Shown one piece after another: positions 10,516 through 53,802 of a stretch of 57,020 bases of DNA; within the stretch, counting starts at the first letter, position 1; each line of letters begins with the position of its first letter. This DNA is from Candidatus Microgenomatus sp. (lineage in GTDB: Bacteria > Patescibacteriota > Microgenomatia > UBA1400 > PJMF01): positions 1 to 57,020 of the forward strand of contig DYGL01000002.1 in assembly GCA_020724725.1 (NCBI GenBank), written 5' to 3'. Below the pieces are notes generated by a model. It saw nothing but the letters and a program-made list of their open reading frames with translations, ran no database searches and was not told the DNA's origin. Position numbers and translations under genes: made by a program.

Positions 10516-11259
10516 CTATATTCTAAGCAAGTTTTGTAGCTTGGCGAGGATCTTTTTTGGACTCTCTACTTCTGGAAAATAATAGGTCAAAAGCGAGGTG
10601 TCTATTTCTAAAACCCCTAAAAATCGATTCAAAGCCGAAAAAAAACTAGATTTTTCCTGCTTCATAAATGATTTTTCATTTTCCTTTATACTTATCAGTC
10701 GATCAAGTTCTTTGCTAATACTTGAGTAGAGCTCAAAAAGGTCATGCAAGCCAGCCTTCTGTCCTATAACTTTGAAGTCGTCCCCAAAGAGCCAGTCAGT
10801 CGCTTTTAACACTAAAACTGCATTTTTATAAGATTTTTGTAGCTCTTCTTTGATACGAAGACTAATCTCTCCAGGATAGAGGTAGACTGCTCTAGTCAAG
10901 GCAACAGCTTTATTTTGAGTCAAGTAAGAGCGCAGATAGCGAAAATTGGCGTCTGTCTTAGGTGCCTGCAAAAAGACAAGGATTGACCAATCTCCCCTCC
11001 ATTGCTCGTGATTGGCAGAAAGAGCCGGAAAAAGCTCTTCTAATTGGCTCTGACCATAAGAACTAAGGCTGTATTTCCATTGACTTTGAGTTTTGTCGAT
11101 ACGAAGCAAATCTTTCTTATCCAACAGAAATAAAGATGACTGCAGGCCAGCCGGACTCAAATGAGGTAGAAGTTCCTGCAATCTAGCCAAATCAAGCCAA
11201 ATTGGCTTGTCATTAGAGGGATAAAGGAATAATAAAATCTTTTTACTATTTTCTTTCAT
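10516..11259 (-). CDS. PaaX-like putative transcriptional regulator
   Basis: The C-terminal half begins with WRGDWSILVF and continues with FRYLRSYL...AVYLYP, as in PaaX_C domains. The N-terminal 80 aa is plausibly a winged helix. Pattern-level call only. Confidence 0.45.
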   Translation of the reverse strand: MKENSKKILLFLYPSNDKPIWLDLARLQELLPHLSPAGLQSSLFLLDKKDLLRIDKTQSQWKYSLSSYGQSQLEELFPALSANHEQWRGDWSILVFLQAPKTDANFRYLRSYLTQNKAVALTRAVYLYPGEISLRIKEELQKSYKNAVLVLKATDWLFGDDFKVIGQKAGLHDLFELYSSISKELDRLISIKENEKSFMKQEKSSFFSALNRFLGVLEIDTSLLTYYFPEVESPKKILAKLQNLLRI

Positions 11260-11807
11260 AAATCAATCTTTTTTAACAAAAGACGCAAAATTTTAGTTAA
11301 TATTAAGCTAGCAAAGCCAAAAAACTCCAACAGTTTTCCACATTGGTTGATACCCAAAGCAGCTTTTTTGCCGTTCTACTAAGCAGTGAAGAAAAAGACT
11401 AAATTCTAATTCTCCAGATTAAAATTGCTTTTTTACTGTGTCAGAAAGGACAGCCAAAACCCGTATTTTTAGTTTTCACTTCACATAATACACAAAAACT
11501 AAGTGAATTCACAAGTGCAAATGTTGTGGAAAAAGTAATAAATAAAAAAAGGCCAATTTCGAGATAAAAACAATTCTGATCTCTTTTGTCAGTCTTTGAT
11601 CCTTATGAAAACCCGTGAAAACTATGCAGGATTAAAATAGACATTTACTCGAGTGTGGATTTCTGAAAGTAAAAGAAAAAACCCGAAAATATCTTCCCTC
11701 TTGCCTCTTTATCTGCTGTTATCTAGACTGGTAGAAGTTAAGAAAAAGGGGCCCAAAAAACATGTCTAATGATCTGGATTAGACAAGAAAAAAAAGACTA
11801 GTCGAGC

Positions 11808-14800
11808 ATGCCTGCCAAAATACCCAAACCTACTATCTTCGCAAAGGCTACTGAAGCTAAAAACGGCTTTTTGCAGACTGTGAGTGATTTGGCCAAGCAA
11901 AATGAGGTCAAAAATGACACCGCCAAAACCCAAAAAGCAGCTCCCCATCAGCTAAATAGATCAAATAATGTCCAAGAACATCTAAAAGACTACCTTTTGG
12001 CAGTCAAACAGACCGGCTGCTCAAACTCCACAATTCGCAATTACAAGAGTGATATCAATCAATTTTTCGAATTTTGTGAAAATGAGAGCCTTGAAGAATT
12101 GAGAAGCAAACCCAAACTACTTGCTTTTGCTCACTACCAGAGGGACAAGGGCCTCAAAGAAAGTAGCATTAAACGCAAATTGGTCAGCTTGACTCAATTC
12201 AAAATTTGGCTCAAAGACCAAGGTCTACTCAATTCTGAGATCCCACTTAGTCCTTTGACCAAAAATGCACAAAAAGAACTAAATGACGAGGCTGAAAGAA
12301 AAATTATCGACAATTACTCTGCTAAGGCACTTGTTAATGAGGCGAAAGAAACACCAAATCCAGAGGAAAAAAAGACGAAAGAAAGACAAAAGCCTCGCAG
12401 TCGCTTATTTATCTTGCTTAACATCCTAGCTCTCTTCCTTTTCTTGGGAGGCTTGGCTTATTTCGCTTATCAGCAATTTGGACAAGCTATTATCTCGATG
12501 GCTTATCCTAGTACCCCTGTCGAGCCAAATCGCATCTTGTCTTATCAAGGTCGCTTGACTGACACCGCCCAAAACCCAATCTCTATCCCCACCCAGATGA
12601 CCTATTCGCTCTATGATGCCGATACTGGAGGCACCTTGCTCTGGGCTTCAAACACTTGTACCGTTGACCCAGATCAAGATGGTATTTTTAATGCCAATCT
12701 GGGAGCTGGTAGTGGCACCGGAGCTGACAATGAGAATTGTGGCGGCGCCATTGATGAGAGCGTCTTTACTGAAAATGCCAATGTTTGGCTGGAAGTAGCT
12801 GTAGGAGCGGAAACCCTTACTCCTCGCCAACCCCTACGTACCGTTGCTTATGCTGTTAATTCTTCAACCTTGCAAGGCTTACCGCCAGCTGAAATCGCCA
12901 CCAACAGCACTATCTTGATGATGAATGCTGCCGGCGAAGTTGTTCTTGGCACTGACAACCCAGTGATCAAAGCAGCGACCACCAGCTCTGGCCTGACCAT
13001 CGAAGCCAACCAAATCTTGATTCAAACCTATGCAGGATCTAATGGTGACATCATCCTCGACCCAGATGGTAGCGGCATTGTTGACATCCAAAGTGACGCT
13101 AGCGTCTCTGGAGACACCACCTTGATTGGCAACGTCTATATCTCCAGTCCTAATAGCCTAATTTTTGGTGGCACAACTGCACTAGGAGAAATTACTTCCC
13201 CAACTGACTCTGGTGCCTATCTGATTGGCGTAAATGATCAATTTACTTACTCTAATTCGACCAACGTCCAAGGTGTACTTTTTGACCTGGATGATTCAAT
13301 CAATGATCTGGTCACAGGCGCCATAGGCGTTTGGACTGACTCCGGCACTCTCACCTATCTGACTTCAACTAGTGATGATTTTGCCGTAGGTGGCAATTCT
13401 CTAGCTGGAGCTTTTTCTGTTGATGTCTCAGATAACGCAGTCAGAATTGGCTCTGGTGCCACTACTAATGCCAGCCTCAATCTTTACGCTTCTGATGGCG
13501 ACACTGGCGCCTTGACCTACACTACTGACGACGCTTTTGTCTTTAGCGGTGGCGATCTGGCTCTGGCTGCTTCTAGTTATTTGAATTGGGGCTCAACCAT
13601 CGGCTCAACTGGCTATGGCTTGCGCGACAATGCTGGCACTTTGCAATTCAAAAACTCTAGTGGCACTTGGGAAAACATTGGTTCTGGTTCTGGCAGTGGC
13701 GATTCTTTCTGGTTAGAAACAGCTGGAGCACTATATGCAGCCAACCCCACTCTGGATCTGTTGATCGGAGGGAGCGCCACAAATTCGGCTAAATTTGCTT
13801 TTACCAATATTGCTTCTGGCACACCCACCTTCTCGATGGCCAATCAAGCTTCTGCTCTAGATCTAATAGACAGCACAGTTAATGCTTTGAATATCGAGGG
13901 TGGCTTAATGTCCTTTGACACCAGTAATTCTCGAGTTGGCATTGGTACTACTACTCCAGGCGCCTTGCTCTCGCTTGCTGCTGCGACCACCAGCAATGCT
14001 CAGCTTAATTTAGCTTCATCAGGAGGAACTGATCCTAGTAGTCTGGTAACTGGTGACTTGTGGTGGGATGGTACTAGTCTGAATTTCTACGATGGTAGCA
14101 GCACCAATGACTTATTGGCTGGTGGCAGTTCCCTCTGGGTTGACGCTGGCACTTACATCTATCCAGCTGGTGGCTTACCTATAGGCAATCCCACATCTGG
14201 AGGAACTAATAAAATCAGCGGTCTCTACATGGCTGATTCTGGCCCGCTTTATTTTGGCACTGATAATGACGTTAACTTCTCTTTTACAGGTTCTACTCTT
14301 AGCACTACTCTTGGCACCAACGCTTGGAATATCGCCAATGATTTACTTTTCCTAGATGGCAGTGGCAATCGCATTGGTGTGGGCACCAATTCTCCACTGG
14401 CTACTCTAGACGTAAGAGCTCTAGATACTGATGTGGCGGTGGCCTCATTCTCTGGCTCAACCAACCTTGCAACTCTAATTATTGACCAGACAGGCTCAGG
14501 CGACCTTTTTACAGCTTCTGCTTCTGGAGTGACTCAATTCGTCATCACCAACGGTGGTAATGTTGGTATTGGCGTAGCTGATCCAACCAGCAAATTGCAG
14601 ATTGGAGGAGCTTCTTCGACCATTTCCAACAGTAGCGGTGATATCACTATAGATGCCGCCTCCAACAACATCTCTCTAGCTGGTGATAACCTGATTAACG
14701 TCGGCAATGGTCTTTTTGCTGGTTCAGTGGGCATCAATACCACTACTCCAGACAGAAGATTAGAAATTGTTGATGCTAGCAGCCCACAGTTACGTCTCAC

Positions 14801-17800
14801 ACAGACTGAAGGATCGATTTATGCAGACTTTAACATGAATTCTAATGGCGATTTGGTCATGAATGTGGATGGTATCACCAATCAATTTGTCCTTGATAAC
14901 GGTGGTAATGTTGGTATTGGCCTAAGTAATCCAGATGAAAAACTAACCGTTAATGGCTCGATTAATGCCGAAAAATACTACGACTTCACCAACAAAAACT
15001 ATTTCTTAGACCCTGCAGCTGTCTCCACTTCACTCAAAACTGCCGGTGATGCTCATGTGGGCGGCGATGTTTACGTCGAAGGTGGTGAAATTTTCTTCAC
15101 TCCAATGTCTTTCTCCACCTCAACTACTGAAGGCACTCTTTATTATGATGACGACGTTGACCATTTATACCTTTATGACGGCAATAGCACTTGGCACCGC
15201 GTGGCCCTCGACATGACTAAATACTCGACTGACGGCACCATTTCCAACCAAGATTACCTACAAATCGCTCACAATCAAAATAGTAATGACTTAACCTTTA
15301 CCGTCTGGGTGAGAGATAAAATCACCAACCTCTGGAGAAAAATCGACCCTACTAGCTCAAGTGTCGACCATGACCTGAGTAATGAATTCAATCCAGAATT
15401 TACCCAAAAAGAAAAGGTTTCAGAAATTAAACTCCAGTACAAGGAAAATAACTTAGGTACCGGCGCTGATGGCTCCATCACTATCTCTGGAACGACTAAC
15501 TTAAATACTCAATTCCCCAGTGGCAGATCTTGTGCTGATGCAGTGATGTATAGCGTCTCAAGTTTAACTAGTACCACTGCCGTACTCACTTCTTCTCCTG
15601 CTACTCCTTCATGTTTAGCTCCCAATGATGAAGTCTTACTAATTAACTTGGCTGGAGATAACACTTCGGTCACTAATGTGGGTAATTATGAAACCTTAAG
15701 AGTGGAATCTGTGGTGGGTAGTACCGTAACCTTTAAGACTGCCAAGACTAGATGGTATGGAAGAGGAGCAAGTGATGACACCGGTATCGGTACAACTGAA
15801 GGCACGCAAAGAGTAATGCTACAAAGAGTGCCTAACTACGTCAATGTAACTGTTAATAACGGTGGCTACTTGGTTCCTTCTGCTTGGAATGGTGCTACTG
15901 GAGGTGTAATGTTCTTTAGAGCCACTGGGACTGTATCTGTGGCTGGTGGTGGATATATTCACACCAATGGTATGGGATACCGAGGTGGCGGTTACTTTGG
16001 AGCTTGGTATGGTGGCGTAGGCGGTGAATCAATGTGGGCAGACAACGTCTATGGTGGTGATGGTGTTGAAGGTGGTGGCATGGGTGGCTATTACAATGCT
16101 GGAGGTGGATACACTCCATACGGTGGTGGTGGAGGTGGTGGTGGTGCCAGAGGTCATGATTCACCTGCAATTGGAGCTGGTTCTGCTGGTACTACTACAA
16201 GAGGTGGTGCCGGAGGTGGTGGAGGTGGAACACATTCTACTAACAATTCTTATCACGCTCGTGGAGGAGGTGGAGGTGGTGGAGGTGGTGGAGGTGGAGC
16301 TGGTGGAGGTGGTGTAGCTTGGGGAAACAACGGTGCTGCTGGAGGTGTGGATGCTAGTGGTAATGGTGGTAATGGTTACGCTCCAGATCATGCAGGAGGT
16401 GGTGGAGGTGGTGGTGGTGGAAGAATTACTACTCCAAATAATCTTACTCAGCTCAGATTTGGCTCTGGTGGTGGAGGTGGTGGAAACGGTGAAGTTTATC
16501 AAGTCCAATACACTGGAGGAGCTGGAGGAAGTGGTGGTGGTGTTGTGTATATTGCTGCCAACACCATTAGTAATAGCGGATATATATTAAGCAACGGAGG
16601 TGCTGGTGCAGCAGAATCTTGTCATAGTAGCAATTGGTGTGGAGGTGGTGGAGGTGGTGGAGCTGGTGGCTCAGTAAAACTTGTTGCCAACACCATGACT
16701 ATTGGAGCTAGTTTGGTACAAGCTGCTGGAGCTGGTGGTGGTGGAACCTACTGGGTTGGAGGAGCTGGAGGAAGTGGGAAGATTGCGATCTACTCTGCTG
16801 GAGCTGTTAGTGGAACAAGTTCACCCACCTATTCTCCATTAAGCTTGGAATACGCTAATTACGCCATTTTCACCTCCAAAGAAATCGCTACTCCAGATGC
16901 TACTGCTTACAACACCATTGCTTGGTCTGAAGATTTAGATACCAATGGCGAGATTCAGATTCAAACCAGATCTGGAGCAAGCTCTAATTCTACAGATGGG
17001 ACTTGGGAAGCTTGGAAGCCAGTGGTGAATGGGACGAATGAAATATCTCTAGAGAGTGCTAACAATCATGCTTCTTGGACAACTAGTACCGCTACTACTT
17101 ACGAAGGCGACATTTTACGTTATGTCAAAACTTTTGAAGATGAAAATGAAACCAATAGTGCTAATCTGACCAAAGTGGCTTTTGCTGGTAGTGGCAATGC
17201 CTACATCGAATCAACTTTCTCCAGTCAAAATCTAACAAATTACGACTATATCACTGTCTGGGTTAGAGGTAGTGCTAGTGGAGAAACCCTTAAACTTGGT
17301 ATTGGCGAAGCAGCTGGCAATGAGCAGGAAGAAACTGTTTTCATTGATCAAGCTAATGTCTGGCAAAAAGTGTACTGGGATATCACCGACATCTCCAGCG
17401 GTAGTAAAGATGCTATTACCAAACTTAGAGTTACCGGCACTACTCCAGGCACAACTTTCTATGTCGATAACGCCAAAGCAGCTCGCTATCTGACCACCAA
17501 CACTGGTTCGACAGTTTACTCTACAGCCGACGAATATTTCCAATACCGAGTCATTCTCAGTACCACCAATGTACTCAATAGTCCCAGTATTTCTCAAATC
17601 AGACTAAACCTCACTACTTCAACTAATGGCACCTTTAATATGGATGTCGACCAAGTGGGCTTGATCGATCAACAAGATAATACTGATAGTTCAATTCGCA
17701 ATAAAGAACCCATTACCCTCGACCGTCGACTCTATGACACTGGTACCGGCGCTGATGGCTCCATCACTATCTCTGGAACGACTAACTTAAATACTCAATT

Positions 17801-20800
17801 CCCCAGTGGCAGATCTTGTGCTGATGCAGTGATGTATAGCGTCTCAAGTTTAACTAGTACCACTGCCGTACTCACTTCTTCTCCTGCTACTCCTTCATGT
17901 TTAGCTCCCAATGATGAAGTCTTACTAATTAACTTGGCTGGAGATAACACTTCGGTCACTAATGTGGGTAATTATGAAACCTTAAGAGTGGAATCTGTGG
18001 TGGGTAGTACCGTAACCTTTAAGACTGCCAAGACTAGATGGTATGGAAGAGGAGCAAGTGATGACACCGGTATCGGTACAACTGAAGGCACGCAAAGAGT
18101 AATGCTACAAAGAGTGCCTAACTACGTCAATGTAACTGTTAATAACGGTGGCTACTTGGTTCCTTCTGCTTGGAATGGTGCTACTGGAGGTGTAATGTTC
18201 TTTAGAGCCACTGGGACTGTATCTGTGGCTGGTGGTGGATATATTCACACCAATGGTATGGGATACCGAGGTGGCGGTTACTTTGGAGCTTGGTATGGTG
18301 GCGTAGGCGGTGAATCAATGTGGGCAGACAACGTCTATGGTGGTGATGGTGTTGAAGGTGGTGGCATGGGTGGCTATTACAATGCTGGAGGTGGATACAC
18401 TCCATACGGTGGTGGTGGAGGTGGTGGTGGTGCCAGAGGTCATGATTCACCTGCAATTGGAGCTGGTTCTGCTGGTACTACTACAAGAGGTGGTGCCGGA
18501 GGTGGTGGAGGTGGAACACATTCTACTAACAATTCTTATCACGCTCGTGGAGGAGGTGGAGGTGGTGGAGGTGGTGGAGGTGGAGCTGGTGGAGGTGGTG
18601 TAGCTTGGGGAAACAACGGTGCTGCTGGAGGTGTGGATGCTAGTGGTAATGGTGGTAATGGTTACGCTCCAGATCATGCAGGAGGTGGTGGAGGTGGTGG
18701 TGGTGGAAGAATTACTACTCCAAATAATCTTACTCAGCTCAGATTTGGCTCTGGTGGTGGAGGTGGTGGAAACGGTGAAGTTTATCAAGTCCAATACACT
18801 GGAGGAGCTGGAGGAAGTGGTGGTGGTGTTGTGTATATTGCTGCCAACACCATTAGTAATAGCGGATATATATTAAGCAACGGAGGTGCTGGTGCAGCAG
18901 AATCTTGTCATAGTAGCAATTGGTGTGGAGGTGGTGGAGGTGGTGGAGCTGGTGGCTCAGTAAAACTTGTTGCCAACACCATGACTATTGGAGCTAGTTT
19001 GGTACAAGCTGCTGGAGCTGGTGGTGGTGGAACCTACTGGGTTGGAGGAGCTGGAGGAAGTGGGAAGATTGCGATCTACTCTGCTGGAGCTGTTAGTGGA
19101 ACAAGTTCACCCACCTATTCTCCATTAAGCTTGGAATACGCTAATTACGCCATTTTCACCTCCAAAGAAATCGCTACTCCAGATGCTACTGCTTACAACA
19201 CCATTGCTTGGTCTGAAGATTTAGATACCAATGGCGAGATTCAGATTCAAACCAGATCTGGAGCAAGCTCTAATTCTACAGATGGAACTTGGGAGGCTTG
19301 GAAACCAGTGGTGAATGGGACGAATGAACTCTTAGTTGATTCCTTAGACGACCATACTAGTTGGACTGGCGCCAATGTGACCATGGCTGAAGGAGATGTT
19401 GCGCGTAATGTCGATTACTATGAAGATGAAGATGAAGCAACTGTTGGCAACACTGCCAAAGGTACAGCTACAGCAGCTAACGGCACCATTACCAAAGCCA
19501 TTACTAGTACCAACCTTTCTAGCTACAGATACCTTTCCTTCTGGGTACGTTCTTCTGTGGCTGGTGAAAGTATTAAGCTAAGATTTACCAATAACGTCAC
19601 TAATAATGAGAAGGCCTTCTACATCGAAACTGCCAACGTCTGGCAGAAAGTTTACTGGGACATCTCTGGATACACTAGAAATGATGTCAATAATTTGAGA
19701 TTTACCGTCGTGCCTAATGGAGCGATTGTGCGCTTGGATAACATTGAGGCTGGTAACTACCTGAGCACCAACTCTGGCTCAACCATTACTTCCACCGCCA
19801 ATGAATATATTCAATATCGCGCCATCTTGACTACCACTAGTGAACTTAATTCACCTACTCTTGGAGAAGTGACTATTAATATTACTGATCTAAGTGGTAG
19901 TAGAAACATTTTGGACAATGTAGCCAACCAAAACACCGTCGATATTTACAACCAAAACAGTCGCGTTAATTTAACCACCAAAGAATTGGATAATATCAAA
20001 TCAAGTCAGATTCTTAAAAAATTTGACAGTGTTACTCAGTCTGGTGGAATTGACTCAGGCACTGGCGCTGATGGCTCTATCACCATTACTGGTTCAATCA
20101 ACTACAACACTCAAGAAGCTATTAGCGGTCGAGATTGTCTGGAGGGAGGCGATGCGCCAAATTATAATGTTTTAAGTTTAACCACCAACACCGCCACTCT
20201 TAATTATGCTCCTTCTACCCCCTCATGTTTGGCTCCTGGAGATGAAATCCTTCTCATCAACCTAATGGGAGACAACACTTCAGTCGAAAACGTTGGCAAT
20301 TATGAGACTCTTAGAATTGAATCTGTAAATGGCACCACTGTGACCTTCAAAACTGCTAAGACTAGATGGTACGGCCGTGGTGCTAACGATGACTCGGGAC
20401 TCGGAACTACTGAAGGCACGCAAAGAGTAATGCTACAAAGAGTGCCTAACTACGAGAATGTAACAGTTAATAACGGTGGCTACTTGGTTCCTTCTGCTTG
20501 GAATGGGGTTCGTAATGGCGTGATGTTCTTTAGAGCAACCGGCATAGTCTCTGTAGCTGGTGGCGGATACATTCATGCTGGAGGATTGGGATATCGCGGA
20601 GGTGGTTATTATTCATCTTGGTATGGCGGTGTGGGTGGTGAATCAATGTGGGCAGACAGCACCTACGATGGCGTTAACTTTACCGGTGGAGGTATGGGCG
20701 GCTACTACAACGGAGGTGGTGGTTACACTGCACGTGGTGGTGGAGGTGGTGGTGGTGGCGCCAGAGGTCATGATTCACCTTCTGCTGGAGGCGGTTCTGC

Positions 20801-23800
20801 TGGTACTACTACAAGAGGTGGTGCTGGTGGAGGTGGCGGTGGAACGCACTCTACAAATAACACCTACCATTCTCGCGGTGGAGGTGGTGGCGGTGGAGGC
20901 TATGGTAGTGCTGGCGCTGGTGGAGGTGCCTGGGGCTACAATGGCGGAAATGGAAGCTTAGATGCTAGCGGCAATGGTGGAAGTGGTTATGTTCCAGATC
21001 ATGCAGGAGGTGGTGGCGGTGGTGGAGGTGGAGCAATTACTACTCCAGATGATTTGTCTAAATTAAGGTTTGGCTCAGGTGGAGGTGGTGGCGGCAATGG
21101 TGAAGTTTATCAGGTGGAATATGCTGGTGGAGCTGGAGGAAGTGGTGGTGGAATTGTTTATATCGCAGCTAACAACATCAGTAACGGTGGCAGTATAAAT
21201 GCAAATGGAGCCAGTGGTGCAGCAGAATCTTGTCATAGTAGTAATTGGTGTGGAGGTGGTGGAGGTGGCGGAGCTGGTGGCTCAGTAAAACTTGTTGCCA
21301 ACTCCATGACTATTGGAGCTAGTTTAGTAAGAGCTGGAGGAGGATCTGGTGGCGGTTCATACTGGATTGGAGGCACAGGCGGTGTCGGTAAAGTCGCTAT
21401 CCACTACTCTGACTCTGTTTCCGGTACTACCTACCCCACTTATCAAGCAGCTGAAGTGCCCAGCTATCACTACTCCATGATGATTTCTGATGAAATTCCA
21501 ACTGCCAACGCTGTCAGTTATGACAAGTTGCGCTGGACTGCTGATCTAGATGACTTTGGTCTGATTACCTTCCAAACTCGCTCCGGACCAACGGACAACT
21601 CTACTGACAATTCTTGGGAGGCTTGGAAACCAGCTGTGGCTAGCACTAATTATTTGACACTAGATAATGCCAATACTCACACTAGCTGGACCAGCACTGC
21701 TGCCACTCTTACTGTTAATGATGGTGATGTGACTAGAGATGTCGATTTCTTTGAAGATGAGGATGAAAGCACTGCTGGCAACGCCACCAAATTGATAATT
21801 AGCTCCAATAATGTCGGTGTTGCGGAGCGCAACATTGGCTCTGCCAACCTGACCAACTACGATTACATCACTTTCTGGGTCTACTCTAGTCGTAGTGGCG
21901 ATAGCATCACCTTGGGTTTTGGTGAAGATCAGGCAGATGAACACGAACAGATGTTCTACATCGAATCGGTTAACACTTGGCAAAAGGTTTACTTTGACAT
22001 CAGCAAAGTACCTAGCCACGAAAAAGATGGGGTGAAGTATTTGCGCATTACACCAACCTACAGCACCAGTTCTTACAACCTCTATTTTGACAACATACAA
22101 GCGGAAAAACTGATGACTGATCCGGCTGGCTCAACCATCGCCTCCAAGCCAAATGAGTATGTTCAATACCGCGCCATCTTAACCAGCACCAAAGATGGTC
22201 ACCACCCCACCCTCTACAACGTCAATCTAGACTGGAACAATGGCTTTAAAGTTGAACAAACCGACTCCAACACCGTTCGCCTCTACAACTACACTGGCGA
22301 CGAACAAAACATGCGCCTTGATGTGATTGTCTTTGGTGCTGACTTGGCTGAGTGGTACACAGTCGAAGATGCCAGCATTGGCCCAGCTGACCTAGTTGCT
22401 ATCACTGGTGAGATGGATGAGTACGGCGTGCCAATTCTGCGCAAGGCAGTTAAGAGCAATGATCCAATGTTAGTCGGTGTCATTTCTACTCAAGCTGGCC
22501 AAGAACTTGGCATTAAAGCAGACAACCGTCGCCTCCTTGCTCTAGATGGTCGTGTGCCGGTCAAAATTGATCCAAGCAGTCCTGCTTTTGAAAAAGGCGA
22601 CCATCTCACTTCTTCTGGTAAACCAGGTTTAGCACGCAAAGCAAAAACCGGAGAACTCAGCATTGGTCGTTCTTTTGAAGCTTGGAAGCCAAATGTTGGT
22701 CAAGAAAAAGTTTTGGTCTTGGTCAACGATGCCATGTCTACTCCATCCTTCAGCGAACAATTAGTTGATGGCGTAGTTGAAATTTCCGATTTGCTCAACC
22801 TCAAGATTCAAGATGGCTGGGAAGTCGTCAATTATGGCACTGGCGAAAGTGTTAAGTCTGCTGCAGCTCTGGCTCAGGCCATTATTGGTCGACTCAAAGC
22901 TGGTCAAATCGAAGTTCAAGAAATCAAAGCTCCAGAAGGAGAAAAGCTAAGTCTGGAAGGTAGCAACATCGCTATCCAGCTTAATGATCAGGAAGCCTCT
23001 GGCAGCACTTCTCTGGGTAAATTGATTATTCAAAATCAAGATGGCCAAACCGTAGCCAGTTTCGATAGTGAAGGCAACGCTTTCATTAGCGGCGATCTGG
23101 ACGTAGAAGGTATTAGTCGCCTTGGTCAACTTCTCAGTAATGAAGCAAGTGTTTCTAGTCTCTTGGCTGAAAACGCTACCGTCTCTGGAGAATTAATTGC
23201 CGGTCGCGTCGAAGCTGAATCAGCTCGCCTTGATTTCATCGAAGGCAAATTAGCTGAACTCGAAAACGCCACCGTCTCTGGCACTCTCTACGCCAACAAT
23301 ATCGAGGCCAATAACATTAATGCTAATGTCATCAGCGGTCTCCAAGAACGACTGACCGGTCAGATTGAAAAAACCCTCAGTGAACCAAGCTTACTAGCCA
23401 GTCTCTTTGGCGAATCTACTCGTCAAACTGAAGAATACTTAGAGCAACTGATGGCAGAAATCAACCAAAATACAAATTCAGCAGATTCGACGACTACTGA
23501 GTTGTCAGACTTAGAAGAAGAAACTCAAGATCTGACTTTAATCGCCGAAAGTGCCTACGTAAATGACTACTTTGAGGTCAACGGCAACGCCATGATCGCC
23601 AATTCTCTCAAGTTAGGTCAAAATTTAATGGTTGGCGAAGGCTTGGTCTTGAGTGAAAACTTCATCAGCTATCAGCCAGACTTTAGTCAAGATTTGGAAC
23701 GCGATCCAAATGATTTCACTTTCTCTATTCAACCAACTGGCATGGGCAAGCTCTCCTTGATGGCTGACTTAATGCAACTTGATGGCCAAGGCTTTGTCAG

Positions 23801-24368
23801 TATCAATGGCGACCTGAGAGTGGCTGGTGTGCTTGATGTTGAAGATGACTTAAAAGTCAAAGATACTCTTTTGACCAACCTCATCAGTAGCAATAAGCCA
23901 GGAGAAAATATTAAGGTTCAATTAGCCTCTCTCGAGACCAATGAAGACTCACTTGAGGGTGGAGATTTGATGGTGGCTCGCAGTAATTTCGAGTTTATTG
24001 ATGAAAACCAAACTCCAGTGGCTAGTTTCTCAGCCACTGGAGACCTATCTCTAATTGGTTCCTTACGTCTAGGTCAGGCTCTAGAGATAGCCAGCGATTC
24101 TGGCGAACTAGTTAACAACCGTAGCGCTGGTCAAGCGATGATGCCAGCTGGTAGCACTGAGATAACGATCAGTAGTGATAGAGTTGAAGCAGGCAGCATG
24201 ATTTACATCACCCCTCTCAACTCTACCAATAACCAAGTTTTGTACGTCAAAAACAAGATGACCGACAGTCCTTTTACTCCTGAAAATGAAGCTCAATTCA
24301 CAGTAGCAATCGATTACGCGCTCGGTCATAATGTAACTTTCAACTGGTGGATTATTCAGCTTAACTAA
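11808..24368 (+). CDS. giant membrane-anchored surface fibre-like protein (4,186 aa): N-terminal integrase SAM-like domain, TM helix, tail-fibre-like repeats, three glycine-rich/beta-sandwich modules, peptidase-G2-like segment
   Basis: Uninterrupted 12.6-kb ORF. Domains by position:
- 11973-12230: XerC/D-type core-binding pattern.
- 12405-12470: TM helix LFILLNILALFLFLGGLAYFAY.
- Further in: repeats of the form GNVGIGxxxPxxKLxV.
- 15456-22240: three ~760-aa modules.
- 22338-22690: segment ADLAEWY...LVGVIS...LDGRVPVKI. Confidence 0.9.
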   Translation: MPAKIPKPTIFAKATEAKNGFLQTVSDLAKQNEVKNDTAKTQKAAPHQLNRSNNVQEHLKDYLLAVKQTGCSNSTIRNYKSDINQFFEFCENESLEELRSKPKLLAFAHYQRDKGLKESSIKRKLVSLTQFKIWLKDQGLLNSEIPLSPLTKNAQKELNDEAERKIIDNYSAKALVNEAKETPNPEEKKTKERQKPRSRLFILLNILALFLFLGGLAYFAYQQFGQAIISMAYPSTPVEPNRILSYQGRLTDTAQNPISIPTQMTYSLYDADTGGTLLWASNTCTVDPDQDGIFNANLGAGSGTGADNENCGGAIDESVFTENANVWLEVAVGAETLTPRQPLRTVAYAVNSSTLQGLPPAEIATNSTILMMNAAGEVVLGTDNPVIKAATTSSGLTIEANQILIQTYAGSNGDIILDPDGSGIVDIQSDASVSGDTTLIGNVYISSPNSLIFGGTTALGEITSPTDSGAYLIGVNDQFTYSNSTNVQGVLFDLDDSINDLVTGAIGVWTDSGTLTYLTSTSDDFAVGGNSLAGAFSVDVSDNAVRIGSGATTNASLNLYASDGDTGALTYTTDDAFVFSGGDLALAASSYLNWGSTIGSTGYGLRDNAGTLQFKNSSGTWENIGSGSGSGDSFWLETAGALYAANPTLDLLIGGSATNSAKFAFTNIASGTPTFSMANQASALDLIDSTVNALNIEGGLMSFDTSNSRVGIGTTTPGALLSLAAATTSNAQLNLASSGGTDPSSLVTGDLWWDGTSLNFYDGSSTNDLLAGGSSLWVDAGTYIYPAGGLPIGNPTSGGTNKISGLYMADSGPLYFGTDNDVNFSFTGSTLSTTLGTNAWNIANDLLFLDGSGNRIGVGTNSPLATLDVRALDTDVAVASFSGSTNLATLIIDQTGSGDLFTASASGVTQFVITNGGNVGIGVADPTSKLQIGGASSTISNSSGDITIDAASNNISLAGDNLINVGNGLFAGSVGINTTTPDRRLEIVDASSPQLRLTQTEGSIYADFNMNSNGDLVMNVDGITNQFVLDNGGNVGIGLSNPDEKLTVNGSINAEKYYDFTNKNYFLDPAAVSTSLKTAGDAHVGGDVYVEGGEIFFTPMSFSTSTTEGTLYYDDDVDHLYLYDGNSTWHRVALDMTKYSTDGTISNQDYLQIAHNQNSNDLTFTVWVRDKITNLWRKIDPTSSSVDHDLSNEFNPEFTQKEKVSEIKLQYKENNLGTGADGSITISGTTNLNTQFPSGRSCADAVMYSVSSLTSTTAVLTSSPATPSCLAPNDEVLLINLAGDNTSVTNVGNYETLRVESVVGSTVTFKTAKTRWYGRGASDDTGIGTTEGTQRVMLQRVPNYVNVTVNNGGYLVPSAWNGATGGVMFFRATGTVSVAGGGYIHTNGMGYRGGGYFGAWYGGVGGESMWADNVYGGDGVEGGGMGGYYNAGGGYTPYGGGGGGGGARGHDSPAIGAGSAGTTTRGGAGGGGGGTHSTNNSYHARGGGGGGGGGGGGAGGGGVAWGNNGAAGGVDASGNGGNGYAPDHAGGGGGGGGGRITTPNNLTQLRFGSGGGGGGNGEVYQVQYTGGAGGSGGGVVYIAANTISNSGYILSNGGAGAAESCHSSNWCGGGGGGGAGGSVKLVANTMTIGASLVQAAGAGGGGTYWVGGAGGSGKIAIYSAGAVSGTSSPTYSPLSLEYANYAIFTSKEIATPDATAYNTIAWSEDLDTNGEIQIQTRSGASSNSTDGTWEAWKPVVNGTNEISLESANNHASWTTSTATTYEGDILRYVKTFEDENETNSANLTKVAFAGSGNAYIESTFSSQNLTNYDYITVWVRGSASGETLKLGIGEAAGNEQEETVFIDQANVWQKVYWDITDISSGSKDAITKLRVTGTTPGTTFYVDNAKAARYLTTNTGSTVYSTADEYFQYRVILSTTNVLNSPSISQIRLNLTTSTNGTFNMDVDQVGLIDQQDNTDSSIRNKEPITLDRRLYDTGTGADGSITISGTTNLNTQFPSGRSCADAVMYSVSSLTSTTAVLTSSPATPSCLAPNDEVLLINLAGDNTSVTNVGNYETLRVESVVGSTVTFKTAKTRWYGRGASDDTGIGTTEGTQRVMLQRVPNYVNVTVNNGGYLVPSAWNGATGGVMFFRATGTVSVAGGGYIHTNGMGYRGGGYFGAWYGGVGGESMWADNVYGGDGVEGGGMGGYYNAGGGYTPYGGGGGGGGARGHDSPAIGAGSAGTTTRGGAGGGGGGTHSTNNSYHARGGGGGGGGGGGGAGGGGVAWGNNGAAGGVDASGNGGNGYAPDHAGGGGGGGGGRITTPNNLTQLRFGSGGGGGGNGEVYQVQYTGGAGGSGGGVVYIAANTISNSGYILSNGGAGAAESCHSSNWCGGGGGGGAGGSVKLVANTMTIGASLVQAAGAGGGGTYWVGGAGGSGKIAIYSAGAVSGTSSPTYSPLSLEYANYAIFTSKEIATPDATAYNTIAWSEDLDTNGEIQIQTRSGASSNSTDGTWEAWKPVVNGTNELLVDSLDDHTSWTGANVTMAEGDVARNVDYYEDEDEATVGNTAKGTATAANGTITKAITSTNLSSYRYLSFWVRSSVAGESIKLRFTNNVTNNEKAFYIETANVWQKVYWDISGYTRNDVNNLRFTVVPNGAIVRLDNIEAGNYLSTNSGSTITSTANEYIQYRAILTTTSELNSPTLGEVTINITDLSGSRNILDNVANQNTVDIYNQNSRVNLTTKELDNIKSSQILKKFDSVTQSGGIDSGTGADGSITITGSINYNTQEAISGRDCLEGGDAPNYNVLSLTTNTATLNYAPSTPSCLAPGDEILLINLMGDNTSVENVGNYETLRIESVNGTTVTFKTAKTRWYGRGANDDSGLGTTEGTQRVMLQRVPNYENVTVNNGGYLVPSAWNGVRNGVMFFRATGIVSVAGGGYIHAGGLGYRGGGYYSSWYGGVGGESMWADSTYDGVNFTGGGMGGYYNGGGGYTARGGGGGGGGARGHDSPSAGGGSAGTTTRGGAGGGGGGTHSTNNTYHSRGGGGGGGGYGSAGAGGGAWGYNGGNGSLDASGNGGSGYVPDHAGGGGGGGGGAITTPDDLSKLRFGSGGGGGGNGEVYQVEYAGGAGGSGGGIVYIAANNISNGGSINANGASGAAESCHSSNWCGGGGGGGAGGSVKLVANSMTIGASLVRAGGGSGGGSYWIGGTGGVGKVAIHYSDSVSGTTYPTYQAAEVPSYHYSMMISDEIPTANAVSYDKLRWTADLDDFGLITFQTRSGPTDNSTDNSWEAWKPAVASTNYLTLDNANTHTSWTSTAATLTVNDGDVTRDVDFFEDEDESTAGNATKLIISSNNVGVAERNIGSANLTNYDYITFWVYSSRSGDSITLGFGEDQADEHEQMFYIESVNTWQKVYFDISKVPSHEKDGVKYLRITPTYSTSSYNLYFDNIQAEKLMTDPAGSTIASKPNEYVQYRAILTSTKDGHHPTLYNVNLDWNNGFKVEQTDSNTVRLYNYTGDEQNMRLDVIVFGADLAEWYTVEDASIGPADLVAITGEMDEYGVPILRKAVKSNDPMLVGVISTQAGQELGIKADNRRLLALDGRVPVKIDPSSPAFEKGDHLTSSGKPGLARKAKTGELSIGRSFEAWKPNVGQEKVLVLVNDAMSTPSFSEQLVDGVVEISDLLNLKIQDGWEVVNYGTGESVKSAAALAQAIIGRLKAGQIEVQEIKAPEGEKLSLEGSNIAIQLNDQEASGSTSLGKLIIQNQDGQTVASFDSEGNAFISGDLDVEGISRLGQLLSNEASVSSLLAENATVSGELIAGRVEAESARLDFIEGKLAELENATVSGTLYANNIEANNINANVISGLQERLTGQIEKTLSEPSLLASLFGESTRQTEEYLEQLMAEINQNTNSADSTTTELSDLEEETQDLTLIAESAYVNDYFEVNGNAMIANSLKLGQNLMVGEGLVLSENFISYQPDFSQDLERDPNDFTFSIQPTGMGKLSLMADLMQLDGQGFVSINGDLRVAGVLDVEDDLKVKDTLLTNLISSNKPGENIKVQLASLETNEDSLEGGDLMVARSNFEFIDENQTPVASFSATGDLSLIGSLRLGQALEIASDSGELVNNRSAGQAMMPAGSTEITISSDRVEAGSMIYITPLNSTNNQVLYVKNKMTDSPFTPENEAQFTVAIDYALGHNVTFNWWIIQLN
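15456..22240 (+). repeat. three tandem ~2.3-kb coding modules inside giant gene 1 (R1 15456-17741, R2 17742-20058, R3 20059-~22240)
   Basis: R1 and R2 appear nucleotide-identical over 15456-16999 = 17742-19285 (offset 2286), spot-checked in several 60-nt blocks. The track also shows identical alternate-frame ORFs at this offset. R3 is a diverged copy with the same protein architecture. Confidence 0.9.
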
Positions 24369-32645: not shown

Positions 32646-33113
32646 TTAATCTGCGCAAATGTAATAGGTAGATGCCACAGGAGTGGTCACCTGACAAGTG
32701 TTGACGCTTTCTGTGATGTCAGCATCAGAGGCATTTTCCAGCTGAGTAGCAAGCAGGAAATCGTCACCAAAGTCAAGTTGAGCATATTCAAACTGAGTGA
32801 CATCAATCATTTTCTTCATGTAAACATCGTTGCCAACAGCAAAACTACCGTCATCGTTGGGACAATTCAAAGTTCCATCTGTTCCACAACCAACAATGTT
32901 GCCATTATCATCATCAGCTGGATAGGCTTGAAAGTCGTTGTAATACATGCGCAAGGCCACTTTGAGCTGGCGCAAGTCGTTTTTTTTGGCGCTATCACGA
33001 GCACGAGCACGCACGCCGATTAAGTTGGGAAGTAAAACCGCCACCAATACTCCTAGGACAGAAATCACCACCAACAATTCGATTAGAGTAAAAGCGTTTT
33101 TCTTTTTAGCCAT
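32646..33113 (-). CDS. type IV pilin / GspG-like pseudopilin (prepilin N-terminal methylation motif)
   Basis: Leader MAKKKNA followed by FTLIELLVVISVLGVLVAV, then the GspG-like pattern DSAKKNDLRQLKVALRMYYNDFQAYP. Confidence 0.8.
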   Translation of the reverse strand: MAKKKNAFTLIELLVVISVLGVLVAVLLPNLIGVRARARDSAKKNDLRQLKVALRMYYNDFQAYPADDDNGNIVGCGTDGTLNCPNDDGSFAVGNDVYMKKMIDVTQFEYAQLDFGDDFLLATQLENASDADITESVNTCQVTTPVASTYYICAD

Positions 33114-33120
33114 AATTTTC

Positions 33121-33669
33121 TTAATAACTATCTACTATATCTGGTGTGCTGGTCAAATTACTACTCATTACCACATAGTTACAGGTGTTGACCGATAAAA
33201 CAGTATCGATGATTCGGCAATAAGTACCCATGTAGTAGGCTGGCTCCTCATCTAAGTTGCGGGCAATATCCTCATCTTCAGTATTTTCTAAATAGGCAAA
33301 AATACGGTAAGTTGTCCCCTGGGAATCAGAAAGATAAAAATACTGAGATCCACCAGGATCTTGGGGAATTTTACTCATATAAAGTGTAGAGTTTTCAGTA
33401 TTTTGCCAGACATCTCCCCAATTACACTCTTCTGCAGCGTTCTCTCCACAACCCAAAATTTTGCCTGCCGATCCATAAGGATAATGACCATAGTCATTGT
33501 AGTAAAGTTCTAGAGTTTTACTGATGCTTTGCAAATCTTGCTTACGCTTGTTATCTCTGGATTTTTGCTGCACACTGCCAAAAGTCCTCAAGCCCAAACC
33601 TACTAGCAGGGCCATAATCGCCATCACCACCAAAAGTTCAAGTAAAGTAAAGCCGCGTTGTTTTTTCAT
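33121..33669 (-). CDS. type IV pilin / GspG-like pseudopilin
   Basis: Leader MKKQRG followed by FTLLELLVVMAIMALLVGL, then NKRKQDLQSISKTLELYYNDYGHYP. Confidence 0.8.
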   Translation of the reverse strand: MKKQRGFTLLELLVVMAIMALLVGLGLRTFGSVQQKSRDNKRKQDLQSISKTLELYYNDYGHYPYGSAGKILGCGENAAEECNWGDVWQNTENSTLYMSKIPQDPGGSQYFYLSDSQGTTYRIFAYLENTEDEDIARNLDEEPAYYMGTYCRIIDTVLSVNTCNYVVMSSNLTSTPDIVDSY

Positions 33670-33681
33670 AAATAAATAATT

Positions 33682-34392: not shown

Positions 34393-34419
34393 CTTGTTAT
34401 CATTTAATCTTAACATAGG

Positions 34420-53800: not shown

Positions 53801-53802
53801 AA

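What the first reader, a model, noticed from the sequence alone, without database searches (positions are those of the whole stretch)
11808..12480. Cytoplasmic tyrosine-recombinase-type SAM-like (core-binding) domain fused by one TM helix to a 4,000-aa extracellular fibre
Residues ~56-141 (nt 11973-12230) read HLKDYLLAVKQTGCSNSTIRNYKSDINQFFEFCENESL...LLAFAHYQRDKGLKESSIKRKLVSLTQFKIWLKDQGLL. This follows the four-helix pattern of the XerC/XerD/phage-integrase N-terminal SAM-like DNA-binding domain, with R/K-x-Y-xx-D-hydrophobic-xx-F and SS/T-hydrophobic-xx-K/R-hydrophobic-S-x-hydrophobic-xx-F spacing. No catalytic integrase domain follows. Instead there is a Lys/Glu-rich linker, one TM helix (12405-12470) and then the extracellular giant. 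A DNA-binding module tethered to the membrane and physically coupled to a surface fibre is unusual. It could act as a ToxR-like membrane-bound regulator, as a DNA tether linked to competence (comEA/comEC lie several kb upstream), or as a repurposed protein-interaction module.
Basis: partly seen in the sequence, partly recalled or inferred. Interest (0 to 1): 0.7.

Follow-up and report, generated by a model that had tools for sequence, protein, structure and literature searches.

The report
Recombinase DNA-binding domain on giant fibre
A 4,186-residue surface protein of an ultra-small (CPR/Patescibacteria) bacterium carries, on its short cytoplasmic tail, the DNA-clamping N-terminal domain of a Xer-type tyrosine recombinase without the enzyme part; this is the conserved hallmark of a large, apparently undescribed family that databases mislabel as "integrases", and it may link a surface fibre to DNA.

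Summary
ORF 11808-24368 (+) encodes, in order:
- a disordered N-terminus (residues 1-53);
- a tyrosine-recombinase core-binding (SAM-like) domain (54-143): Pfam PF02899 E=3e-10, AF2 pLDDT 93, TM 0.78 and rmsd 2.3 A to the lambda Int CB domain;
- a non-conserved Lys/Glu-rich linker;
- one TM helix (200-221) with 7 K/R on the N side and none on the C side;
- about 3,960 Gly/Ser/Thr/Asn-rich residues.

No catalytic domain is present, so it is not a recombinase.

The fusion is not a one-off. A profile search gave 772 cluster representatives, and almost all of the best 150 are giants of 1,500-7,700 aa. In 111 of them one or two SAM-like domains are followed by a single TM. Eighty-three loci were found in GTDB species genomes, mostly titled Microgenomates-type Patescibacteria. 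NCBI names these proteins "site-specific integrase".

The SAM-like domain and the TM/juxtamembrane motif are the best conserved parts (about 48-50% identity, against 22-29% for the ectodomain). The domains are basic (median pI 9.6).

In 78 of 82 loci a PaaX-like gene lies divergently upstream, across a roughly 550-bp spacer that holds near-invariant DNA blocks.

Function is inferred, not shown. The favoured reading is a membrane-tethered DNA-binding tail that works like ToxR or as a nucleoid tether. I found no literature on the fusion.

The parts
11808..24368 (+). Giant ORF (4186 aa plus stop): cytoplasmic tail, one TM, then ectodomain
11808..11966 (+). Residues 1-53: Lys-rich N-terminus, predicted disordered. 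Starts MPAKI, which is conserved in close homologues. Not conserved across the family.
   Evidence: pLDDT <50; alignment A2; BLAST hit in only 2 of 81 relatives
11967..12236 (+). Residues 54-143: tyrosine-recombinase core-binding (SAM-like) domain. Family-invariant residues: T75, N78, Y79, D82, R123, K124, W134.
   Evidence: Pfam PF02899 E=3.2e-10; AF2 pLDDT 93; Foldseek hits to CB domains; alignments A3 and A6
12237..12398 (+). Residues 144-197: Lys/Glu-rich linker, non-conserved, largely low-confidence in the model. Across the family the linker is 24-268 aa, median 79.
12405..12470 (+). Residues 200-221: single TM helix acting as a signal anchor, N-in by the positive-inside rule
   Evidence: Kyte-Doolittle peak 2.41; flanks 7 K/R against 0; family statistics; AF2 helix 199-232
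12471..12593 (+). Residues 222-262: conserved extracellular juxtamembrane motif QQFGQA..S.AYPSTP..PNRILSYQGRLTDTAQNPI..T. Invariant residues: Q223, A232, P234, R242, Q247, R249, L250, P257, T262.
   Evidence: alignment A3; segment conservation about 50%
12594..24365 (+). Ectodomain: Gly 16%, Ser/Thr/Asn-rich, no Pfam domain. Holds three ~2.3-kb repeats, of which the first two share a 1,544-bp stretch of 100% DNA identity (15456-16999 = 17742-19285). Weak match to the Bdellovibrio fibre bd2133.
10516..11259 (-). Divergent upstream gene (247 aa): PaaX-like putative regulator (winged-helix N-terminus plus Cas2-like PaaX_M domain). Adjacent to the giant gene in 78 of 82 loci.
11260..11807 (.). 548-bp divergent intergenic region with DNA blocks that are near-invariant across species. 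These include TTTTCCACA (11334-11342) and its reverse complement TGTGGAAAA (11525-11533); AAAACCCG three times (11456, 11608, 11678); a sigma70-like promoter on the minus strand (11514-11485); a possible giant-gene promoter TTGCCT-17-TAGACT (11701-11729; my reading, below the scan's threshold); and the palindrome/hairpin GTCTAAT-N7-ATTAGAC (11764-11784). It is a candidate cis-regulatory target.

Best explanation
SHOWN. The gene encodes a type-II (N-in, C-out) single-pass giant surface protein. Its only recognisable cytoplasmic module is a Xer-type tyrosine-recombinase core-binding (CB, 'SAM-like') domain with no catalytic domain. It belongs to a large family of giant proteins in Patescibacteria, mostly Microgenomates-type by record title. 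The gene sits in a conserved chromosomal slot. In this family one or two CB domains, the TM helix and a juxtamembrane motif are the most conserved parts.

INFERRED. The CB domain keeps its ancestral activity and binds duplex DNA at the inner face of the membrane. The giant fibre is therefore physically coupled to DNA. Because an isolated CB domain binds weakly (textbook knowledge), binding probably relies on avidity. That could come from tandem CB domains in some subfamilies, or from oligomerisation of the fibre.

FAVOURED OUTPUT. I favour a ToxR-like, membrane-tethered, one-component circuit. In it, the amount or state of the surface fibre (assembly, or contact with a host cell) is reported to transcription. 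The most likely target is the ultra-conserved divergent promoter region shared with the adjacent PaaX-like regulator gene.
For: Domain identity and fold.

No catalytic domain. The cytoplasmic tails of nine diverse relatives also contain only SAM-like domains.

N-in topology: 7 against 0 K/R in the flanks here. In the family the mean is 3.3 against 1.05, and the N side is higher in 88 of 111.

Purifying selection: the CB domain shows 48% median identity and is found in 78 of 81 long relatives, against 22-29% for the ectodomain. The flanking N-terminus and linker are unconserved.

Canonical Xer helix B and helix D motifs are kept: TIRNYKSDINQF and SSIKRKLVSLTQF. R123 aligns with the conserved Arg of the recombinase helix D motif.

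The domains are basic: median pI 9.6, net charge +6, positive in 92% of 98 domains.

Tandem CB domains occur in at least 18 relatives.

Candidate target: a ~550-bp intergenic region is conserved at the DNA level in 37 loci. It has no consensus RNA structure and no Rfam hit, so the conservation looks like DNA-level elements. A PaaX-like gene is adjacent in 78 of 82 loci.
Against: No DNA binding has been measured or modelled.

From general knowledge, isolated CB domains of tyrosine recombinases bind DNA weakly without the catalytic domain.

The conserved residues shared with recombinases (T, Y, D, F, W) are largely structural core, so they do not prove a DNA interface.

The conserved intergenic blocks could equally be promoters plus operators for the PaaX-like protein alone.

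In a distant tandem-CB subfamily the upstream gene is not PaaX-like and the motifs are absent. The proposed local circuit therefore cannot be family-wide.

The chromosomal neighbourhood as a whole is syntenic (LeuS ... giant ... TPR ... M23 ... Rho), so adjacency may reflect synteny rather than function.
Confidence: 0.42

Rival explanations
1. The CB domain has been repurposed as a protein-protein interaction or scaffold module. Possible roles: sequestering the adjacent PaaX-like regulator or a genuine Xer recombinase at the membrane, oligomerising the tail, or docking the giant pre-protein to an export or assembly factor. It would not bind DNA.
For: A PaaX-like gene is adjacent in 78 of 82 loci. 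In recombinases the CB domains also make protomer-protomer contacts; for example the Cre N-terminal domain interface is 1066 A2, as quoted in PMC3646895. There is no catalytic partner domain to complete a DNA clamp.
Against: The strongly basic charge of the domain across the family and the retention of the helix D Arg/Lys pair fit nucleic-acid binding better. The PaaX-like neighbour is absent in the distant subfamily, which nevertheless keeps tandem CB domains.
Confidence: 0.25
2. The protein is a structural chromosome-envelope tether. The CB domains hold the nucleoid, or a particular locus such as the adjacent region or even oriC, at the membrane under the fibre. This would aid chromosome organisation or segregation in an ultra-small cell. 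There would be no regulatory output.
For: The domain is basic and membrane-tethered. The gene sits in a positionally conserved core slot. Two of the window's five perfect DnaA-box matches lie in the adjacent spacer and are conserved. The related complete genome CP011212.1 is linearised exactly at this spacer.
Against: GC skew is negative on both sides of the spacer and gene-strand bias does not flip (ORF strands). No dnaA gene is seen within -11 kb or +45 kb. Only two perfect boxes are present. No motif was found dispersed across the window as a general tether would need: apart from the 3 intergenic copies, AAAACCCG occurs only 4 times in 57 kb.
Confidence: 0.15
3. The tail binds RNA, ribosomes or the nascent chain, or serves co-translational targeting or quality control of an extremely long secreted polypeptide.
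For: The domain is basic. It is the first folded module to emerge, about 60 residues ahead of the signal anchor.
Against: I know of no precedent for RNA binding by CB domains. The 5'UTR palindrome is conserved in sequence rather than by covariation.
Confidence: 0.08
4. The domain is an accidental relic: a truncated integrase gene fused to a surface-protein gene, a misassembly, or a frameshift artefact. It would have no function.
For: Databases label these proteins as integrases. One close homologue (P0001) is interrupted by a frameshift.
Against: The continuous CB-TM-giant reading frame recurs in more than 100 independent assemblies. The CB domain is more conserved than the ectodomain. Invariant residues persist across sequences that are 24-77% identical to the window protein.
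Confidence: 0.02

Closest known systems
Core-binding (N-terminal SAM-like) domain of Xer / lambda-Int-type tyrosine recombinases (Pfam PF02899; XerA, XerC, XerD, lambda Int 75-160)
   Same: Same four/five-helix cruciform fold (TM 0.72-0.78, rmsd 2.2-2.3 A). Same helix B (T..Y..D...F) and helix D (S...R.L......F) motifs. Basic charge.
   Different: No catalytic RHR-Y domain follows. The domain is tethered by a disordered linker to a TM helix and a ~3,960-aa ectodomain. It is sometimes duplicated in tandem. It therefore cannot recombine DNA. Family-specific invariant residues include C71-S72, N78, S81, Q85, K101-P-K103 and K124.
ToxR / CadC / TcpP-type membrane-bound one-component transcription regulators
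   Same: Same logic of architecture: an N-terminal cytoplasmic domain of DNA-binding type, a single TM, N-in topology and an extracytoplasmic domain.
   Different: The DNA-binding fold is a recombinase CB domain, not an OmpR-type winged helix. The ectodomain is 30-60 times larger and fibre-like rather than a small sensor domain. DNA binding and regulation are unproven here.
Giant surface proteins and fibres of episymbiotic or predatory bacteria (Vampirococcus giant membrane proteins, PMC8080830; Bdellovibrio fibre bd2133, PDB 8ond)
   Same: Very long, membrane-associated, repeat-rich, and presumed to act in adhesion or host recognition. Weak sequence match to bd2133 (E=7e-4).
   Different: Neither the Vampirococcus paper nor the giant-gene preprint mentions integrase. 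Homology of the ectodomain is marginal.
Membrane-associated DNA-binding tethers (Noc; ComEA on the outer face)
   Same: The concept of a DNA-binding module held at the membrane. A ComEA gene lies 4.4 kb upstream.
   Different: Unrelated folds. Here the module is cytoplasmic and covalently joined to a surface fibre. No evidence was found for dispersed chromosomal binding sites.

Membership tests
Phage_int_SAM_1 / core-binding domain (PF02899) | Profile score above Pfam's gathering threshold over the full domain | tested here: met
   40.6 bits against GA 22.3, profile positions 4-83 of 83. The domain was also found in nine diverse relatives.
Phage_int_SAM_1 / core-binding domain (PF02899) | Two perpendicular helical hairpins forming a four-helix cruciform bundle | tested here: met
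   AF2 pLDDT 93.3. The top 22 Foldseek hits are CB domains, TM up to 0.78. The fold description comes from PMC3646895.
Phage_int_SAM_1 / core-binding domain (PF02899) | Binds core-type duplex DNA | not testable with these tools
   Only indirect support: pI 9.6 and the conserved helix D Arg/Lys pair.
Tyrosine recombinase / 'site-specific integrase' (the database label) | C-terminal catalytic domain (PF00589) with the R-H-R-Y active site | tested here: not met
   No PF00589 hit in 4186 aa at E<=1. Xer equivalog models match only their first ~100 positions, scoring 37-39 bits against cut-offs of 220-335.
Tyrosine recombinase / 'site-specific integrase' (the database label) | Soluble protein of about 300-400 aa forming a C-shaped clamp | tested here: not met
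   The protein is 4186 aa and membrane-anchored. The CB domain is followed by a disordered linker and a TM helix.
ToxR-like membrane-bound one-component regulators | Cytoplasmic N-terminal DNA-binding domain, single TM and extracytoplasmic C-terminal domain, N-in | tested here: met
   Architecture and positive-inside statistics. Topology was judged by heuristic only.
ToxR-like membrane-bound one-component regulators | OmpR/PhoB-type winged-helix DNA-binding domain | tested here: not met
   No Trans_reg_C or any other wHTH hit. The domain is a recombinase CB fold.
ToxR-like membrane-bound one-component regulators | Binds promoter DNA and controls transcription while membrane-bound | not testable with these tools
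   A candidate target region exists, but no binding data.
PaaX-family regulator (upstream neighbour, 10516-11259) | PaaX central Cas2-like domain plus N-terminal winged helix | tested here: inconclusive
   The window protein scores 19.4 bits against GA 24. Sixteen of 25 orthologues match PaaX_M, best E=5e-7. The profile against PDB gives 3kfw at E=0.029 and PaaX 8a39 at E=0.13.
oriC (for the adjacent intergenic region) | GC-skew sign change, a cluster of DnaA boxes, and usually adjacency to dnaA | tested here: not met
   Skew is negative on both sides. Only 2 perfect boxes are present. No dnaA is found in the window. The only hint is that CP011212.1 starts at this spacer.

The most novel reading that the evidence does not exclude
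A new class of transmembrane signalling or tethering device in CPR bacteria. A multi-thousand-residue surface fibre would be hard-wired through one TM helix to recombinase-derived DNA-binding domain(s). Contact of the fibre with a host cell, or its assembly state, would then be transmitted directly to the chromosome. The result would be either one-component contact-dependent gene control or a physical surface-to-nucleoid link in cells too small for elaborate cascades.
Probability: 0.2. Interest if true: 0.85.

Novelty: new variant of a known kind. Interest (0 to 1): 0.62.

Why it matters
CPR/Patescibacteria are a large share of bacterial diversity and live attached to host cells. How they sense and respond to contact is essentially unknown, and their giant surface proteins are uncharacterised.

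A conserved cytoplasmic DNA-binding-type domain on a positionally conserved giant fibre gives a concrete, testable handle. The tail is small and soluble, so it can be used for EMSA or DAP-seq without cultivating the organism.

It would also be the first reported case, as far as my searches show, of a tyrosine-recombinase core-binding domain used outside a recombinase as a membrane-tethered module.

Practically, hundreds of proteins of 2,000-7,700 aa are annotated as 'site-specific integrase'. This can mislead mobile-element and prophage predictions in CPR genomes.

Tried and rejected
1. oriC hypothesis for the adjacent spacer. It was raised by the conserved DnaA-box-like inverted pair and by CP011212.1 starting exactly there. 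It is not supported: GC skew is negative on both sides, strand bias does not flip, and no dnaA is nearby.

2. Structured ncRNA in the spacer. No Rfam hit at E<=1. RNAalifold consensus energy is about 0 in nearly all windows on both strands. The hairpin at 11764-11784 is conserved in sequence, and its few variants give no clear covariation signal.

3. Competence linkage. comEA/comEC synteny is seen in only 16-20 of 82 loci.

4. Pilin-like anchor. By my reading, the TM segment lacks a prepilin G/F-x-x-x-E motif.

5. The k-mer homologue searches were uninformative: 3 partial hits and only fragments of 170 aa or less with the domain profile. The exhaustive representative search was needed.

6. PDB sequence searches gave only marginal hits: 3nrw and 2key at E~0.5; XerA at E=0.007 and an Xer-like N-terminus in chain 9i5v_14 at E=5e-4.

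7. The idea that the conserved downstream polytopic TPR protein is an O-antigen-ligase-like glycosyltransferase has no Pfam support.

8. The upstream gene of the distant tandem-CB subfamily is not PaaX-like (hhalign probability 0.1) and its spacer lacks the window's motifs.

9. Eight literature searches and three paper look-ups found nothing on this fusion.
Full report
**1. The observation**

The window contains one uninterrupted ORF, 11808-24368 on the + strand, of 4186 codons.

A Pfam scan of the first 240 residues gives Phage_int_SAM_1 (PF02899) over residues 62-139. The match covers essentially the whole profile (4-83 of 83), with E=3.2e-10 and 40.6 bits against a gathering score of 22.3. 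Three sister SAM-like families give weaker hits. Scanning all 4186 residues adds no other significant domain and no Phage_integrase catalytic domain.

NCBIfam's XerA, XerC and XerD equivalog models match only their N-terminal ~100 positions. The scores are 37-39 bits against cut-offs of 220-335. PHROG phrog_1 (integrase) matches residues 50-190 only.

A first AF2 model of residues 1-270 gave a confident helical bundle at 51-137, a TM helix at 199-232, and low confidence elsewhere. A domain-only model built on a 31-sequence family alignment has pLDDT 93.3 and pTM 0.85. Its 22 best Foldseek matches in the PDB are all core-binding domains of tyrosine recombinases:
- lambda Int 1z1g_A, TM 0.78, rmsd 2.3 A over 93 columns;
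- XerA 5hxy_D, 0.72 and 2.2 A;
- Brujita Int 5vfz, 0.75 and 2.2 A;
- also Cre, IntI and several structural-genomics N-domains.

Probabilities are 0.7-1.0, although E-values are weak, as expected for a 95-residue helical domain. The fold matches the published description of two perpendicular helical hairpins (PMC3646895).

The only strong hydropathy peak in the protein is at residues 196-222. The 15 residues before it hold 7 Lys/Arg and the 15 after it hold none. The linker 144-197 has 9 K and 9 E in 54 residues.

The rest of the protein is Gly 16% and Ser/Thr/Asn-rich. It has no further hydrophobic segment of comparable strength (next best 1.23 against 2.41) and only 16 Cys.

**2. It is a family, not a curiosity**

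The k-mer-indexed search found only three partial homologues, all named 'site-specific integrase, partial' from Candidatus Pacebacteria or Woesebacteria.

The exhaustive search of 1.84 billion cluster representatives used a profile of residues 1-270. It returned 772 representatives at E<=1e-3, 171 at E<=1e-10 and 72 at E<=1e-30. Nearly all of the best 150 are 1,500-7,700 aa long.

I re-analysed those 150 with a domain-only HMM and a hydropathy scan:
- 111 have a SAM-like domain (at least 20 bits) followed by a single TM helix 24-268 residues later (median 79).
- 75 of these are at least 1,500 aa and 38 are at least 3,000 aa. Many shorter ones are contig-end fragments.
- At least 18 carry two SAM-like domains in tandem.
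- The positive-inside rule holds: mean K+R is 3.3 on the N flank against 1.05 on the C flank, and the N flank is higher in 88 of 111.

Pfam scans of nine diverse relatives found only SAM-like domains, in one or two copies, in the cytoplasmic tail. This includes three ~300-aa members that might have been real integrases. None has a catalytic domain or any other domain.

NCBI names full-length members of 5,205 and 5,466 aa 'site-specific integrase' or 'phage integrase N-terminal SAM-like domain-containing protein'.

A scan of one genome per GTDB species with a single peptide pattern confirmed 83 stretches as relatives; the best 80 loci were kept. This is a lower bound. Record titles are mostly Pacebacteria/Paceibacterota, Woesebacteria, Gottesmanbacteria, Beckwithbacteria, Microgenomates or 'Patescibacteria group'. 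Some MAG titles say Pseudomonadales, TM6 or Parcubacteria. I take these to be submitter labels, because the loci share 35-70% identity and the same synteny.

**3. What is conserved**

In a 27-sequence family alignment (24-67% identity to the window protein), the invariant positions fall in two places:
- in the CB domain: T75, N78, Y79, D82, R123, K124 and W134 (full-protein numbering);
- in an extracellular juxtamembrane motif: Q223, A232, P234, R242, Q247, R249, L250, P257 and T262, with consensus LAYPSTPTRPNRxLSFQGRLTDTAQNPIT.

I then compared the window protein segment by segment against 81 relatives of at least 2,000 aa:

| Segment | Median identity | Found in |
|---|---|---|
| CB domain | 48% | 78 of 81 |
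| TM plus juxtamembrane | 50% | 79 of 81 |
| Ectodomain segments | 22-29% | variable |
| N-terminal 53 residues | not conserved | 2 of 81 |
| Linker 144-197 | not conserved | 1 of 81 |

The cytoplasmic domain is thus under stronger constraint than the fibre it is attached to. That excludes an accidental fusion.

The CB domains are basic: median pI 9.6, median net charge +6, positive in 92% of 98 instances. The helix B and helix D motifs (TIRNYKSDINQF and SSIKRKLVSLTQF) align with the canonical Xer motifs. R123 aligns with the conserved helix D arginine (alignment).

**4. Genomic context**

Upstream, all on the minus strand, lie an M16 peptidase, a metallo-beta-lactamase-fold protein, ComEC, ComEA, LeuS and a 247-aa protein with no significant Pfam hit.

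Downstream, a second giant ORF of 2,753 aa starts at the stop codon of the first (TAATG). It has its own N-terminal TM, four LamG domains, Gly_rich_2, DUF2341 and Ig/FN3 domains. After it come three type-IV pseudopilin genes, a polytopic membrane protein with a TPR C-terminus, Obg, an M23/LysM peptidase and Rho.

tblastn across 82 loci shows the 247-aa gene divergently upstream in 78 of them, down to about 30% identity. LeuS is seen in 43, ComEA in 20 and ComEC in 16.

The 247-aa protein is PaaX-like. Sixteen of 25 orthologues match the PaaX central Cas2-like domain (best E=5e-7), and the window protein scores 19.4 bits against GA 24. The family profile's best PDB hits are the PaaX-like protein 3kfw and PaaX itself.

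A distant subfamily with tandem CB domains (P0097, P0126) occupies the same chromosomal slot: LeuS ... divergent gene | giant -> TPR membrane protein ... M23/LysM, Rho. Its upstream gene is not PaaX-like, however. The giant gene is thus a positionally conserved core gene of these genomes.

**5. The spacer**

The spacer between the PaaX-like gene and the giant gene is 548 bp here and 450-620 bp in most loci.

Among ten species whose flanking proteins are only 56-88% identical, long blocks of the spacer are invariant. An nhmmer profile detects the spacer in 37 loci, including some whose flanking proteins are only 30-40% identical to the window's.

Conserved elements:
- TTTTCCACA (11334) and its reverse complement TGTGGAAAA (11525);
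- three direct AAAACCCG copies, out of 7 in the whole window where 1.6 are expected;
- a sigma70-like promoter on the minus strand, TTGTGA-18-TATTAT, whose hexamers coincide with the most conserved columns;
- a possible giant-gene promoter, TTGCCT-17-TAGACT (my reading; it is below the scan's threshold);
- a perfect palindrome, GTCTAAT-N7-ATTAGAC, 23 nt before the ATG.

There is no Rfam hit and no consensus RNA structure. These look like DNA-level regulatory elements.

The two 9-mers match the DnaA-box consensus, and the related complete genome CP011212.1 is linearised exactly at this spacer. I therefore tested an oriC reading. GC skew is negative on both sides, strand bias does not flip, and no dnaA lies within -11 or +45 kb. 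I regard oriC as not supported, but not formally excluded.

**6. Mechanism**

Shown:
- an N-in, single-pass giant surface protein whose sole cytoplasmic module is a recombinase CB domain without a catalytic partner;
- the module is conserved, basic and sometimes duplicated.

Inferred:
- the module still binds duplex DNA, probably with avidity supplied by tandem copies or by oligomerisation of the fibre. A weak match of the ectodomain to the Bdellovibrio fibre protein bd2133 hints at a fibre (E=7e-4).

I favour a ToxR-like membrane-tethered regulator acting on the adjacent conserved divergent promoter region, together with or against the PaaX-like protein. I put this at about 0.4.

Rivals:
- a pure protein-interaction module, about 0.25;
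- a structural nucleoid or locus tether, about 0.15;
- an RNA-binding or export-related role, about 0.08;
- an accidental relic, about 0.02, effectively refuted.

The absence of the PaaX-like gene and of the motifs in the distant subfamily argues that any local circuit is clade-specific. Whatever the CB domain does must be more general than that.

**7. Comparison and novelty**

The domain is a member of the CB/SAM-like domain family: the score and fold tests are met. The protein is not a tyrosine recombinase, because the catalytic domain test is not met.

It works like ToxR/CadC-type regulators in architecture only. The defining winged-helix DNA-binding domain is absent, and regulation is untested.

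Eight full-text searches and look-ups in papers on giant genes and CPR giant proteins found no mention of this fusion. The architecture exists in databases only as a mislabel.

I rate it a new variant of a known kind: a membrane-tethered DNA-binding module that uses a recombinase-derived domain on a giant fibre. Interest is about 0.6.

**8. Caveats**

- Topology rests on hydropathy and the positive-inside rule, not on a dedicated predictor.
- Foldseek E-values are weak, although the ranking is unanimous.
- Taxonomic assignment rests on record titles.
- The family counts derive from a profile that also included the TM and juxtamembrane region.
- No binding experiment or protein-DNA modelling was possible.

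Noticed in passing
window 11260-11807: The spacer between the PaaX-like gene and the giant gene contains DNA blocks that are near-invariant across species whose flanking proteins are only 56-88% identical. nhmmer detects the spacer in 37 loci. It has no Rfam hit and no consensus RNA structure, so these are probably promoters and operators.
   Followed up: partly
window 11334-11342 and 11525-11533; L006 (CP011212.1) positions 1-529: Two conserved, inverted, perfect DnaA-box matches (TTTTCCACA) lie 182 nt apart. A related complete genome record is linearised exactly at this spacer. This raised an oriC possibility, but GC skew and strand bias in the window do not support it.
   Followed up: partly
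window 10516-11259 (-): A 247-aa protein with no significant Pfam hit turns out to be PaaX-like (Cas2-like central domain plus a probable winged helix). It lies divergently adjacent to the giant gene in 78 of 82 loci.
   Followed up: yes
window 15456-16999 and 17742-19285 (third, ~75% identical copy near 20163-21176): A 1,544-bp stretch inside the giant gene is repeated with 100% DNA identity at a 2,286-nt offset. It is either a very recent tandem duplication of a ~762-aa unit or an assembly artefact.
   Followed up: partly
window 24368-32629 (+): A second giant ORF (2,753 aa) starts on the last base of the first ORF's stop codon (TAATG). It has its own N-terminal TM (about residues 25-45) and LamG x4, Gly_rich_2, DUF2341 and Ig/FN3-like domains, but no SAM-like domain. 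It is present in only some relatives.
   Followed up: partly
window 32646-34449 (-) and 34613-36655 (+): Three type-IV pseudopilin genes and a polytopic membrane protein with a C-terminal TPR follow the giant genes. The pilin-TPR block recurs downstream wherever the giant gene is short enough for it to be seen. In a distant subfamily the TPR protein is the gene immediately downstream of the SAM-giant (24% identity, E=7e-26). Its membrane half has no Pfam match.
   Followed up: partly
relatives P0018-P0029, P0097, P0126, P0127, P0143 (loci L026, L083-L085): Subfamilies carry two tandem CB domains in the cytoplasmic tail. In some (for example P0024) each CB domain is preceded by a repeated ~75-aa helical segment. 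In another subfamily a conserved pre-TM segment (RPxWYxxYH) replaces the disordered linker.
   Followed up: partly
database records MBT3249409.1, MCB9813502.1, HEV2339978.1; loci L005-L077: Proteins of 2,671-5,466 aa are named 'site-specific integrase' or similar. Many MAGs carrying this CPR-type locus are titled 'uncultured Pseudomonadales bacterium', TM6, Vitreimonas, Methylococcaceae or Limisphaerales, which look like mislabels.
   Followed up: no
window 41564-43708 (+), 52919-54714 (+): A VirD4/TrwB-like coupling ATPase and two proteins with type-IV-secretion pilin domains are present further downstream in the window.
   Followed up: no
PDB 9i5v chain 14: A 401-aa chain deposited as 'Ribosome-associated translation inhibitor RaiA' has an Xer-like SAM-like N-terminus. 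It was the best PDB sequence match to the family profile (E=5e-4). It is probably a fused or mis-delimited gene model.
   Followed up: no
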